From: Eledone cirrhosa
Lineage: Eukaryota
Assembly (NCBI GenBank): GCA_964016885.1
Contig: OZ024741.1
Span: 395,498,001-395,562,000, forward strand
Direction: 5' to 3'
Length of the DNA stretch: 64,000 nucleotides
The translations under genes were made by a program, and so were the position numbers. Below the pieces are notes generated by a model, which saw nothing but the letters and a program-made list of their open reading frames with translations, was not told the DNA's origin and did no database searches. Positions 4,476 through 34,759 of the stretch are shown here, piece after piece (the stretch's first letter is position 1; each line of letters opens with the position of its first letter).

Positions 4476-4516
4476 TGCCCTTGAGAAGCCCAACTGGGCT
4501 AAACGTACGTAGGTGC
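4476..4516 (+). ncRNA. Degenerate minimal type I hammerhead ribozyme, U3-A8 variant (G12U)
   Basis: TTGAGAA-GCCC-AACT-GGGC-TAA-ACGTACGT-A-GG. Stem II and palindromic stem III present; G12 mutated; stem I weak. Confidence 0.55.
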
Positions 4517-4727
4517 TGTTTTAAATAAACATGTTTGAACGGTCTATTCTCCGATTTTTTACTTTCCCACGTGCTTATGCTCTGCTAACTCTCTAGCCCA
4601 CTAAATACTAACACTTCGAATATTTAATACTGCCGGCACTAGTATCGAGCACCTTTGGCATACGCTACTTGGCAAATAACTATATGTATCACCTATCCCC
4701 CCTTTTTTTCTGTTTCTCGATACGTAA

Positions 4728-5571
4728 ATAATATATATACATATATACATATATATATAGACATATATATATATATATATATATATACACATATATAAAT
4801 ATATACATATATATATACATATATATATACATATATATATACATATATATATACACATATATATATATATATATACATATATATATACATATATATATAC
4901 ATATATATATACATATATATATACATATATATATACATATATATATATATATATACATATATATATACATATATATATACATATATATATATACATATAT
5001 ATATACATATATATATATATACATACATATATATATACATATATATATATATACATATATATATACATATATATATATATATACATATATATATACATAT
5101 ATATATACATATATATATATATACATATATATATATACATATATATATATATACATATATATATATATACATATATATATATATATATATATATATACAT
5201 ATATATATATACATCTATATATATATATATACATATATATATATACATCTATATATATACATCTATATATATACATCTATATATATACATCTATATATAT
5301 ACATATATATATATACATGTATATATATACATATATATATATATATATATACATATATATATATATATATATATACATATATATATATATACATATATAT
5401 ATATATACATATATATATATATATATATATATACATATATATATATATACATATATATATTCATATATATATATATACATATATATATTCATATATATAT
5501 ATATATATATACATATATATATATATATATATACATATATATATATATATATATATACATATATATATATA
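4728..5571. repeat. (TA)n/(TATACA) microsatellite array
   Basis: Direct sequence. Confidence 0.98.
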
Positions 5572-6220
5572 CTCCATTTTATGTCCTAAATGCAAAGTAT
5601 GGGTGCATAAAAGATGTAGTGGGATCACAGGTAAGCTAACTAAGAACATAGATTTTACATGTGGCCGGTGTTCTGGTGCAATAAGTAGCAGCAAGTGCCC
5701 ACAAAATACTAGCTCTTTCAATTGCGCAGAGGGTTCTATAGAAATAGTGGACAGCTTCCGTTACCTGGGCGATAAAATCAGCCGTGGGGGAGGGTGCTCT
5801 GAAAGTACTGTAGCTAGAGTCAGAACTGGTTGGAAAAAGTTCAGAGAGCTTATACCACTATTAGCTGCTAAAGGGTTCTCCCTAAAAATGAAAGGCAGGT
5901 TGTACGATGCCTGCATAGGAACAGCAATGTTGCATGGCAGTGAGACCTGGGCACTGTGTGCAGAGGATATACGCAGACTAGAGAGGAACGAAGCTTGCAT
6001 GCTCCGCTGGATGTGTAACAGTAATATACGTGAACGGCAAAGCATAAACGAACTAAGGAAAAAATTAGAGATAAGAGGGATCAGATGTTGTTTACTCGAG
6101 AGAAGGCTACGTTGGTATGGACACGTGATGCGCATGAAAGTCGATAGCTATATAACAAAGTGCAGGGCAATAAAGATAGACGGTAGTCACGGAATAGGCA
6201 GACCTAGAAAAAGGGATGAA
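5571..6220 (+). mobile_element. RTE LINE internal fragment (PHD finger to GRP motif), near-identical to 9743-10394
   Basis: [22 protein letters not shown]...[10 protein letters not shown]...GRPRK; lacks 3' UTR and tail. Confidence 0.92.
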
Positions 6221-6277
6221 ATCGAAAATGCAACTGAAGTCTTATTTTTTTTTTTAAATATATATATTTATTTGGTT

Positions 6278-6315
6278 CCTTTACCGGTTTCGCAGTTCTT
6301 CTGCTTTTCAAAAGG
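6278..6315 (-). ncRNA. Minimal type I hammerhead ribozyme, U3-A8 variant, intact fold
   Basis: Reverse strand: CCTT-TTGAAAA-GCAG-AAGAA-CTGC-GAA-ACCGGT-A-AAGG. Stem I CCTT/AAGG, stem II GCAG/CTGC, palindromic stem III ACCGGT, GUA cleavage triplet. Confidence 0.8.
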
Positions 6316-6347
6316 TGAGTTGAGATGGAGGGTCTGTGGTTTTTCTC

Positions 6348-30988: not shown

Positions 30989-31246
30989 GGGGAGGGTCAT
31001 ATTTGTGTAATATATTGCCAGAATTAATAACAGAACACACTCACTGTTTGGTTGGTTTTCGCTTTTCGCTTCTGTGTCTTCTATATCGGTAATCAAATTT
31101 ATTTGAATAAATTTGATTACCGATATAGATTACTGTTATTAATTCTGGCATTATTACACAAATATGACCCTCCCCAAGTATAACAATATTTGTTTCGACA
31201 CACGATTTCATATAAAAAAACCTCGCAAAACTAATTCATCGCTGTT
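30989..31246. mobile_element. Nested fold-back element in TA repeat; related to 26993-27260
   Basis: Outer arms about 30989-31033 / 31133-31175; inner hairpin of about 24 bp at 31080-31129. Confidence 0.65.
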
Positions 31247-32130
31247 ATATATATATATATATATATATATATATACACACACACATACAGCCACATACAT
31301 ACACATGCATATATACACATATACACATACATACACATATATATATATATATATATACATACACATATACACACATACGCACACACACATATATATATAT
31401 ATATATATATATACATATATACACATATATATATACACATATATATATGTATATATATATGTATATATATATGTATACATATATACATAAATTTATATAT
31501 ATATATACAGTATATATATATACACACATACACAGACATACATGCGTACATACACAAGTACCTACATGTGTGTGTGTGTATATATATATATATATATACA
31601 CATATACACACACACATACATACATATATACATATATATATATATATACATACATATATGTACACACACATACATACACATATATACATACACATACACA
31701 TATGTATACACATACACACAATTTATTTAAAAGATTTAAAATAAATTTTCGTTCTTAAGAGCGAAGTCAGACGTCTGTGTCAGGCTCGTCTGTCTTCGTG
31801 AAACCTTTGGTAAATGAAATAATTATCTCATGTTGCTTATTACATAACTAAAAAGCTCTGTAGTCTACATAGAGCACTCGCTTTTTCTTTACCTTTCCTA
31901 CGGAAATGCTTCACACACACACATATATATATATATATATATATATATATATATATATATATATATATAGTTAAAAGAATAGAGATGTAACACACAAGTT
32001 ATTATATATTGGTAAACGGAATAGAAAATGCTGACAAATTGTTCACAGTTGAAAAATGGTTTAATTAGGAATCAAAGAGTATTAGTGATTGTATGGGTTA
32101 GTATTCAGTTGTGGTTTTAAGTTTTTAAGT

Positions 32131-32168
32131 TTTTACCGGTTGCGCATTTCTAAATGCTTTTCAAAAAT
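32131..32168 (-). ncRNA. Hammerhead motif, U3-A8 variant with A13C change (left arm)
   Basis: Reverse strand: TTT-TTGAAAA-GCATT-TAGA-AATGC-GCA-ACCGGT-A-AAA. Confidence 0.6.
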
Positions 32169-33209
32169 AATTTTGAGATAGAGTGTCCGTGCTGTTTGCT
32201 CTGATCTGATTAGTTTTGGGAATTCTACCTGTTTTTATGTTTAAAAAGTGGCTCCAGCGTTATTTTTGTGTTGCAAAAATGCTTGTGGTCAAAACAATTT
32301 TGATTGGTCGGTAGAGGTCATGTGAATGTAAAAAGTTGATTTTGCGCCAAGACTGTTTTTATGTTAAAAAAGTGGCTCCAGCAAAAATTCTTGGTCAAAA
32401 CAATTTTGATTGGTCGGTAGAGGTCATGTGGATAAAAAATTGGTTTTGCGCCAAGATTGAGAAATGACTCTTTCACAACAAATATGTGTGTGTGTGTATG
32501 TGTGTGTGTGTGTGTGTGTGTGTGTGTGTGTATGTATGTGTGTGTGTGTGTGTGTGTGTGTGTAGTAGTAGTAGTAAGGTGTTCGATGCTGCGACAATGG
32601 CCAGCAGCGATGTGTGTCAAATGGCTATTAAGATAAGTGTGTGTGTGTGTGTGTGTGTGTGTGTGTGTGTGTGTGTGTGTGTATAGCAGAGTAATTCGAT
32701 GGTCAGTAAGAATGTGTCTGAAAGCAATGGGGGGTATTTTAGCATGTCAAAAGATATTTTTCAGCTTTTGTCTTATACGGAGAAGTGCCTGTGTGTGTGT
32801 GTGTGTGTGTATAAGTCTCTTTGTATGTTGATGTACGCGTGTGTATGTGTTTGTGTATATATATGTGTGTGTGTGTGTGTGTGTGTGTGTGTGAGTGGAC
32901 CATTATTTTTTTCCCCCTGGTAAAATGGTGTACATTATTCGATTTTTTCAGTAAAATCGATTCTCTTAATAGAACATCAAAAATCTTAACAATAAAAGGT
33001 GTGAAATGATATTCACTATATATATATACACATACATATATTCACTACATACATATATATACATATATACATACATATATATGCACATATATTTTTTTGT
33101 ATTGCACCATAGAGCATGTGTGTTTACGTGTGTCATTGTGTTTATATGTGGGTAGAGATGTGTGCTGATGTAGGTATGTATGTTGACGTGTGTATGTTGT
33201 GGGTTCGTC

Positions 33210-33555
33210 TTAGGGAGAAGTGTTTAGACGGGGTCCGTATTTGTTAATGAAGTAAGATTCCTTGCTGATGCGCTGGGTGTGGGTGGCATTATCTTTAAAT
33301 TTGTAGAGGGGAAAGATTCTGAAGTTGGGATGATTTTGGGCGGCACAGGTATCAATGTGTTCACTCAGTGGTATTTTCCTGTATTCCCGTATTTTAATTT
33401 GGGATCTATGGACAGTCATGCGTTGGCGGAGGCTGTTTTTGGTCTGGCCTATGTATTGTTCTCGACAACCTGAACAAGTTAATACATATATTAGATTTTC
33501 CGATGCACATGTGAAATTGTGTTTTACTATAAAACGTTGTCCATCTTTGAAATAT
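33210..33555 (-). pseudogene. GIY-YIG endonuclease fragment (Neptune-like PLE)
   Basis: HNFTCASENLIYVLTCSGCREQYIGQTKNSLRQRMTVH...LSEHIDTC...RISKESYFINKYGPRLN. Confidence 0.85.
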
Positions 33556-34721
33556 TTCAGAATCTTTCCCCTCTAGAAATTTAAAGATAATGCCACCCAC
33601 ACCCAGCGCATCAGCAAGGAATCTTACTTCATTAACAAATACGGACCCCGTCTAAACACTTCTCCCTAAGACGAACTCACAACATACACACGTCAACATA
33701 CATACCTACATCAGCACACATCTCTACCCACATATAAACACAATGACACACGTAAACACATGCTCTATGGTGCAATACAAAAAAATATATGTGCATATAT
33801 ATGTATGTATATATGTATATATATATATGTAGTGAATATATGTATGTGTATATATATATAGTGAATATCATTTCACACCTTTTATTGTTAAGATTTTTTA
33901 TGTTCTATTAAGAGAACCGATTTTACTGAAAAAATCGAATAATGTACACCATTTTACCAGGGGGAAAAAAATACTGGTCCACCCACACACACACACACAC
34001 ACACACACACACACATATATATATATATATACACAAACACATACACACGCGTACATCAACATACAAAGAGACTTATACACACACACACACACACGCACTT
34101 CTCCGTATAAGACAAAAGCTGAAAAATATCTTTTGACATGCTAAAATACCCCCCATTGCTTTCAGACACATTCTTACTGACCATCGAATTACTCTGCTAT
34201 ACACACACACACACACACACACACACACACTTATCTTAATAGCCATTTGACACACATCGCTGCTGGCCATTGTCGCAGCATCGAACACCTTACTACTACT
34301 ACTACACACACACACACACATATATATACGCACACACACACACACACACACACACACACACACACACACACACACACACACACACACACACACACACACA
34401 CACATATTTGTTGTGAAAGAGTCATTTCTCAATCTTGGCGCAAAACCAATTTTTTATCCACATGACCTCTACCGACCAATCAAAATTGTTTTGACCAAGA
34501 ATTTTTGCTGGAGCCACTTTTTTAACATAAAAACAGTCTTGGCGCAAAATCAACTTTTTACATTCACATGACCTCTACCGACCAATCAAAATTGTTTTGA
34601 CCACAAGCATTTTTGCAACACAAAAATAACGCTGGAGCCACTTTTTAAACATAAAAACAGGTAGAATTCCCAAAACTAATCAGATCAGAGCAAACAGCAC
34701 GGACACTCTATCTCAAAATTA

Positions 34722-34759
34722 TTTTTGAAAAGCATTTAGAAATGCGCAACCGGTAAAAA
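34722..34759 (+). ncRNA. Hammerhead motif, U3-A8 variant with A13C change (right arm)
   Basis: Same motif as 32131-32168, on the + strand. Confidence 0.6.

What the first reader, a model, noticed from the sequence alone, without database searches (positions are those of the whole stretch)
4476..34759. The U3-A8 hammerhead variant recurs in three unrelated element families
Seen: the same architecture occurs with different stem sequences. At 4476-4516 it is UUGAGAA, GCCC/GGGC, ACGUACGU, at the 3' end of a Hydra-type PLE. At 6278-6315 it is UUGAAAA, GCAG/CUGC, ACCGGU. At 32131-32168 and 34722-34759 it is UUGAAAA, GCAUU/AAUGC, ACCGGU, at the 3' end of a Neptune-like PLE. All use a GUA triplet. 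Two carry one further core change (G12U; A13C in both arms). Inference: the variant core is a lineage-wide feature of several PLE families in this genome, not a one-off mutation. Canonical-core families coexist at 15082, 35104 and 35277.
Basis: partly seen in the sequence, partly recalled or inferred. Interest (0 to 1): 0.75.

Follow-up and report, generated by a model that had tools for sequence, protein, structure and literature searches.

The report
Penelope hammerheads with fixed core swaps
These are the small predicted self-cutting RNA motifs at the ends of abundant Penelope-type jumping genes; their swapped core base pair is already published and likely arose twice here rather than three times, and one young family of about 11,000 copies also fixed a change at a normally invariant core letter, likely because these elements are copied mostly from uncut RNA.

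Summary
All four motifs are real type I minimal hammerheads in Penelope-like element (PLE) ends: 4 seen, 0.003 expected. They are not three unrelated families. 4476 is a Hydra-clade element (A). 6278 (B) and 32131/34722 (C) are sister Neptune-type families with 56% RT-EN identity, so two origins are likely. U3-A8 is fixed per family (pattern matches: A 1,438; B 12,183; C 10,966; controls 0). It is not genome-wide: 10 C3-G8 against 9 U3-A8 motifs in 460 kb sampled, and two other Hydra families keep C3-G8. U3-A8 in PLEs is published (PMC4209133), and this scan has noted it often in this genome. G12U is private decay. A13C is not: it is in 10,966 of 11,119 copies of a young family with open ORFs, and in two other organisms' contigs, while the rest of the motif stays conserved. 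Short B and C copies mostly start 62-80 nt upstream of the cut, behind a TATA-like box, so templates were likely uncut. A cleavage-footprint test was suggestive for B and inconclusive for C. No cleavage was measured. Verdict: known variant, plus a family-fixed A13C worth assaying.

The parts
2930..4730 (+). 5'-truncated copy of Hydra-clade PLE family A in (TA)n; EN-bearing frame at 3440-4174
   Evidence: full 927-aa ORF with RWK, DKT, CxCX5C and no CCHH in L185
4476..4516 (+). Family A hammerhead: U3 4481, A8 4486, private G12U at 4500, predicted cut after A17 at 4511
6208..6351 (-). Stub of Neptune-type family B; begins 70 nt upstream of the predicted cut, at the 5'-end hot spot, next to (TA)n
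6278..6315 (-). Family B hammerhead: U3 6311, intact GAAA, A17 6282, 4-bp stem I CCUU/AAGG
32003..33572 (-). Left arm of a family C insertion with GIY-YIG fragment (33210-33572)
32131..32168 (-). Family C hammerhead-type motif: U3 32164, family-fixed C13 at 32142, A17 32134
33556..34880 (+). Right (inverted) arm of the same family C insertion
34650..34693 (+). TATA-like CATAAAA (34650-34656) and, 31 nt downstream, CAGAT at the hot spot of 5' ends; inferred transcription start of the pLTR
   Evidence: sequence
34722..34759 (+). Family C hammerhead-type motif: U3 34725, A8 34730, G12 34746, C13 34747, A17 34755
15081..15110 (+). Canonical C3-G8 minimal hammerhead (C3 15086), another family
35104..35340 (.). 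Degenerate canonical-core pair (C3 at 35110 + and 35333 -), two arms of one older insertion

Best explanation
The four motifs are type I minimal hammerheads in the pLTRs of two PLE lineages (one Hydra family; a clade of sister Neptune-type families) that likely each replaced the C3-G8 core pair by U3-A8 independently, and one Neptune family then fixed A13C, which likely weakens or abolishes cutting without stopping the element. Inferred mechanism: C3-G8 to U3-A8 needs two transitions through a U3-G8 wobble, so it recurs easily and keeps the pair and the G8-position 2'-OH. The palindromic helix III would let two motifs fold as a dimer, probably with help from the element's protein. Transcripts likely start about 70-75 nt upstream of the cut site, behind a TATA-like box. 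Reverse transcriptase starts downstream of the motif and mostly copies through an uncut hammerhead, so cutting is optional for insertion. That would let family C amplify with C13 while the fold or the underlying DNA stays under constraint for another role (protein binding or promoter). Shown: anatomy, family membership, copy counts, fixation, 5'-end hot spot. Inferred: two origins, route, dimer, transcription start, loss of activity in C.
For: Counts against reversed-pattern controls: B 12,183/0, C 10,966/0, A 1,438/0, further U3-A8 families D/E 3,793/40. B and C differ at 4 of 30 motif positions: one compensatory stem II pair G-C to U-A, one loop letter, and A13C (and sequence). A versus B/C RT is about 20% identical; EN tree splits B+C+D from 11 Hydra-type ENs at 100/100. 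Hydra families at L247 and L263 keep C3-G8, as do 26 of 26 Hydra rows in File S2 of PMC8557442. A U3-G8 family is listed in Fig. S3 of PMC4209133 (S. kowalevskii 1). Family C is young: 150 of 150 listed EN matches at 100% identity, many in 784-aa open frames. 5' ends at -80..-61 from the cut in 31 of 98 B arms and 24 of 110 C arms. Hammerhead mutants did not affect PLE insertion in vitro and cleavage needed protein (PMC11167929, passages).
Against: No cleavage data for any of these motifs. The motif in C is still conserved after A13C: 0 of 28 core and stem sites differ between 7 old and 32 young copies against 24 of 196 flank sites (p=0.03). That fits retained catalysis as well as a structural role, and the conserved block runs about 15 nt upstream of the motif. 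The cut-site test gave no clean B/C contrast: 15 of 100 listed B copies and 14 of 100 listed C copies start at nucleotide 1.1 (hand tally). Most loci behind the hot-spot counts were selected for holding a hammerhead, which biases against cut-start arms. In one type III construct only the G-C swap, not U-A, rescued the 3-8 pair (PMC9901934, passage), so U3-A8 may itself be slow. Published Hydra lists used a C3-G8 descriptor, so they cannot show U3-A8. The Hydra part of the EN tree is mostly unresolved.
Confidence: 0.68

Rival explanations
1. Family C's U3-A8/C13 core is a working hammerhead (dimeric or protein-assisted), and C13 is a tolerated natural variant.
For: All other core and stem letters are unchanged across subfamilies. 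No variant at or above 10% lies in window 34706-34775 in 4 of 4 runs apart from a loop indel and a deletion starting at A17, against 21 variable sites in 131 flanking bases. 14 of 100 listed C copies start at nucleotide 1.1. Recalled, not checked: C keeps an exocyclic amine like A13.
Against: A13 is part of the consensus core (PMC3088659) and all 56 motifs of Fig. S3 in PMC4209133 keep GAAA. 9 of the 14 C starts at 1.1 are explained by a local palindrome, deletion or duplication. Stem I of C is only 3 A-U pairs and is not formed in the predicted fold.
Confidence: 0.2
2. U3-A8 spread once, by pLTR exchange or host-level selection, and is lineage-wide in this genome.
For: At least five families carry it (A, B, C, D, E) and it makes up 9 of 19 paired-core motifs in 460 kb. 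A and C cores are unchanged in contigs of two other organisms.
Against: B, C and D are one clade. A differs from them in N7, stem II, helix III and flanks. C3-G8 families are as frequent.
Confidence: 0.08
3. All these motifs are catalytically dead relics, conserved only as part of an internal promoter at the DNA level.
For: The motif sits 40-75 nt downstream of the inferred start site; the conserved block includes non-hammerhead letters; only about 3% of B copies (403 against 12,183) begin near the cut.
Against: Compensatory stem II change between B and C, different stems with the same fold in A and D/E, and palindromic helix III in all point to RNA-level selection. In the first 30 B loci, 16 of 21 true junctions fall at 0..+3 against 5 at -9..-1, a step at the predicted cut.
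Confidence: 0.04

Closest known systems
Minimal type I hammerheads of metazoan PLE pLTRs, U3-A8 form of Schistosoma mansoni Cercyon families Sm3/Sm4 (Cervera and de la Pena 2014, PMC4209133; main text parts 1-2 of 4 and supplement parts 1-2 of 3 read)
   Same: Type I topology, position in the pLTR, palindromic helix III, G10.1-C11.1, U3-A8 covariation fixed in whole families (about 1,300 hits there).
   Different: Here it sits in Hydra- and Neptune-type elements, with no extra nucleotide between 9 and 10.1, a 3-4 bp self-complementary helix III, about 28,000 pattern matches in total, and one family with C13 (all 56 motifs of their Fig. S3 have GAAA).
Hydra clade PLEs (Craig et al. 2021, PMC8557442; passages, section 11, supplement parts 1-2 of 59 read)
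   Same: Family A has RWK, DKT, CxCX5C linker, CxxC and CxH, no CCHH, (TA)n targets and a 3' hammerhead.
   Different: All 26 Hydra rows in File S2 have a CUGA core; family A has UUGA. Its ORF is 927 aa, with an insertion between RT and EN.
Neptune/Nematis-type PLEs (PMC8557442, passages)
   Same: [quoted passage not shown]
   Different: U3-A8 core throughout this clade; B and C have an upstream ORF1 overlapping the RT-EN frame at a conserved U_UUU_UUA.
Natural core variants of hammerheads (Perreault et al. 2011, PMC3088659; section 8 and passages read)
   Same: U3-A8 covariation is reported in several natural ribozymes and described as active in vitro.
   Different: A13C is not among the variants named in the text I read (A6C, A6a, U13a insertion, U15.1-A16.1); its figures were not seen.

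Membership tests
Type I minimal hammerhead (PLE type) | Core N3 U4 G5 A6 N7 N8 A9 with a Watson-Crick 3-8 pair | tested here: met
   U3-A8 in all four; 98 of 100 listed A copies, 0 with C3-G8
Type I minimal hammerhead (PLE type) | G12 A13 A14 A15.1 in families A and B | tested here: met
   B intact; A intact in 92 of 100 listed copies; the window copy alone has U12 among 32 motifs printed
Type I minimal hammerhead (PLE type) | G12 A13 A14 A15.1 in family C | tested here: not met
   C13 in 10,966 of 11,119; C is therefore called a hammerhead-derived motif, not a consensus hammerhead
Type I minimal hammerhead (PLE type) | Stem II closed by G10.1-C11.1, with covariation | tested here: met
   G-C in B against U-A in C at the fourth pair
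Type I minimal hammerhead (PLE type) | Palindromic helix III and UH triplet | tested here: met
   ACGUACGU and ACCGGU; GUA; D has GUC, E GUA/GUU
Type I minimal hammerhead (PLE type) | Stem I of at least 3-4 bp | tested here: inconclusive
   B 4 bp; C 3 A-U pairs; A 2 bp plus a possible bulged extension; predicted folds form it only in B
Type I minimal hammerhead (PLE type) | Self-cleavage after H17 | not testable with these tools
   Genomic footprint suggestive for B, inconclusive for C
Hydra clade PLE (family A) | RWK, DKT, CxCX5C linker, CxxC and CxH, CCHH absent, (TA)n target | tested here: met
   927-aa ORF in L185 against section 11 of PMC8557442
Hydra clade PLE (family A) | RT groups with reference Hydra elements | not tested
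   No reference proteins in the tree; only ENs of this genome
Neptune-type PLE (families B, C, D) | RT plus C-terminal GIY-YIG with CX2-5CxxC linker | tested here: met
   Pfam RVT_1 and GIY-YIG for B and C; linker CX4CXXC in B, C and D
Neptune-type PLE (families B, C, D) | RT phylogeny separating Neptune from Nematis | not tested
   No reference set; both clades share the linker (PMC8557442)

The most novel reading that the evidence does not exclude
Family C carries a natural, still-cleaving hammerhead with three core substitutions (U3, A8, C13), kept by selection in about 11,000 copies and across related organisms; with its A13-bearing sister family B it would show that the 'invariant' A13 can be replaced when the element's protein or dimer fold assists.
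Probability: 0.2. Interest if true: 0.68.

Novelty: new variant of a known kind. Interest (0 to 1): 0.42.

Why it matters
The role of PLE hammerheads is open: they cut slowly, and mutants still insert in vitro (PMC11167929). B and C are young sister families in one genome with similar copy numbers whose motifs differ in the core only at position 13. They give a ready natural test of whether cutting matters for spread. If C is dead, it is in vivo support that cutting is dispensable while the fold is kept. If C cuts, the hammerhead consensus widens. In practice, C3-G8/GAAA descriptors would miss about half of the hammerheads sampled in this genome (9 of 19). The U3-A8 recurrence itself is already known.

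Tried and rejected
Rfam: no hammerhead among the 150 of 304 rows shown; uninformative for minimal motifs. DNA search with the 84-bp B motif found nothing, not even itself; the pattern search was used instead. Sequencing runs: no RNA holder listed. Alternative register for C that would restore GAAA: rejected by reading, since the upstream GAAAU gives no A15.1-U16.1 pair. 'A13C is decay shared by both arms': rejected. Cut-site footprint: TA-anchored lists suggested a peak for B (about 9-14 of about 41 loci) and none for C (1-2 of about 35). The non-redundant repeat did not hold this contrast (15 of 100 and 14 of 100). All four were hand tallies of the first 100 rows; only 30 B loci were classified by script, after dropping 9 duplications or deletions. 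Core type could be assigned for only 2 of 10 other Hydra-type ENs in the tree; the rest are decayed or truncated. C3-A8/G13 hits inside RTE-type coding sequence were taken as chance. One script output was swamped by TA repeats and rerun. Papers not held: Lunse et al. 2017 (PMC5785218), which catalogues PLE hammerhead variants and may list A13C; Nelson and Uhlenbeck 2008; Przybilski and Hammann 2007; Scott 2013. bioRxiv supplements were not seen.
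Full report
Observation. U3 lies at 4481(+), 6311(-), 32164(-) and 34725(+). Each has a 4-5 bp stem II, a palindromic helix III and GUA. G12U is at 4500; A13C is at 32142 and 34747. A strict descriptor gives 4 in the first 47 kb against a mean of 0.003 in 300 shuffles. The last two motifs are the arms of one inverted insertion.

Which elements. Family A (4476) lies behind a Hydra-type endonuclease; a full copy has a 927-aa ORF with RWK, DKT, CxCX5C, CxxC/CxH and no CCHH, the features listed for the Hydra clade in PMC8557442. 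Family B (6278) is a 144-bp stub here. Its 3' region leads to a GIY-YIG gene, and full copies have a 775-aa RT-EN frame. Family C has a 784-aa RT-EN frame. B and C are 56% identical over 771 aa; A is about 20% identical to either over about 240 aa. An EN tree of 14 rows puts B, C and a further family D together, apart from 11 Hydra-type rows (100/100; no reference proteins). So the window shows two lineages, not three unrelated families.

Fixation. Exact patterns match 12,183 places for B, 10,966 for C and 1,438 for A, with 0 for each reversed control. Among the first 100 A rows, 98 have U3-A8, none has C3-G8, 93 have G12 and 92 an intact GAAA, so G12U is private decay. In C only 153 places have A, G or T at position 13, a mix that looks like later mutation, so C13 holds 98.6%. 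A wider pattern adds 3,793 matches (control 40), mostly families D and E with the same ACCGGU helix. D has a Neptune-type EN; no EN was found upstream of E in the loci examined, and E may be the ~320-bp non-coding repeat noted earlier by the scan (not tested).

Not genome-wide. In 46 regions of 10 kb taken at round coordinates on the four largest contigs, the descriptor found 10 C3-G8, 8 U3-A8 and 1 U3-A8/C13 motifs; shuffles gave 0 for these classes. Two other Hydra-type families here keep C3-G8 (L247, L263), as do 26 of 26 Hydra rows in File S2 of PMC8557442, though that search required C3-G8. Two transitions through a U3-G8 wobble are the simplest route (inference); a U3-G8 family appears in Fig. 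S3 of PMC4209133.

The A13C family. C is young: all 150 listed EN matches are 100% identical and many lie in full open frames. C13 is also in older copies (84-91% identical) and in contigs of two other coded organisms that cover the site without a listed change. Family A's U3-A8 is likewise unchanged in those organisms. After A13C the motif stayed conserved: 0 of 28 core and stem sites against 24 of 196 flank sites differ between 7 old and 32 young copies (p=0.03; loci chosen by core pattern were excluded). The conserved block reaches about 15 nt upstream of the motif, so part of the constraint may be on promoter DNA.

How it likely works. 5' ends of short arms cluster 61-80 nt upstream of the predicted cut in B (31 of 98 arms) and C (24 of 110), at a shared CAGAT 29-31 nt behind a TATA-like box. 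Most of these loci were selected for holding a hammerhead. Genome-wide, only 403 B and 108 young-C copies begin within about 10 nt of the cut. This fits run-off from an uncut transcript. It agrees with PMC11167929 (passages), where a PLE hammerhead needed protein to cut and its mutants still inserted. For B, 16 of 21 true junctions in the first 30 loci fall at 0..+3 against 5 at -9..-1, a hint of cutting in vivo. Stalling at stem I and microhomology are rivals, and the same design gave 15 of 100 (B) and 14 of 100 (C) starts at nucleotide 1.1, so it does not tell whether C cuts. The TSS reading and the footprint test came as leads from earlier scan notes.

What is known. U3-A8 is described for natural hammerheads (PMC3088659) and for about 1,300 S. 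mansoni PLE motifs (PMC4209133). One mutational scan found only the G-C swap to rescue this pair (PMC9901934), so U3-A8 may be slow. For A13C, a search for 'hammerhead' with 'A13C' returned 0 papers, and all 56 motifs in Fig. S3 of PMC4209133 have GAAA. Lunse et al. 2017, the likeliest place for it, was not held. A search for hammerhead ribozyme, octopus and Penelope returned only PMC8557442. Other papers seen: PMC6765202, PMC7229834, PMC6257768, PMC2553840 and PMC11014351 (passages only) and bioRxiv 10.64898/2026.07.22.740005 (abstract and outline).

Verdict. Real, a known variant in a known setting, and overstated as three unrelated families. The part that deserves a second look is the family-fixed A13C beside an A13 sister family. 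Interest 0.42; new variant of a known kind.

Noticed in passing
L113:2857-2866, L236:2949-2958: Families B and C have an upstream ORF1 (410-455 aa, 43-55% identical, no Pfam match) overlapping the RT-EN frame at a conserved U_UUU_UUA heptamer: candidate -1 frameshift (or splice acceptor). No strong downstream hairpin predicted. PMC8557442 Fig. 1 legend mentions frameshift-separated ORF1 in PLEs.
   Followed up: partly
   Followed up: partly
L278, L287, L301 (family D); L275, L276, L288 (family E): Two more U3-A8 families with ACCGGU helix III, long loop II and weak stem I; D uses GUC and has a Neptune-type EN, E has UUGAUAA and no EN found.
   Followed up: partly
L007:2359, L122:5613, L345: Copies of B and C in which the hammerhead is deleted between short repeats; in L122 both arms share the deletion.
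   Followed up: no
window 37520-37924: Decayed EN of a second Hydra-type family; no hammerhead found downstream. About ten distinct Hydra-type ENs occur in the fetched loci.
   Followed up: partly
window 831-2948 (-) and 8279-10510 (+): Non-LTR RT ORFs with a PHD finger after the RT (76% alike); the B stub sits next to a fragment of this family (5571-6219).
   Followed up: no
window 47155-64000: 102-bp satellite array, about 90% identity between units, running off the window.
   Followed up: no
L185 and related A loci: The two arms of A insertions end at fixed, different points (+61 and about +200 or more from the cut), and C at +131 and +165: the PLE 'tail' signature of two RT start sites.
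   Followed up: partly
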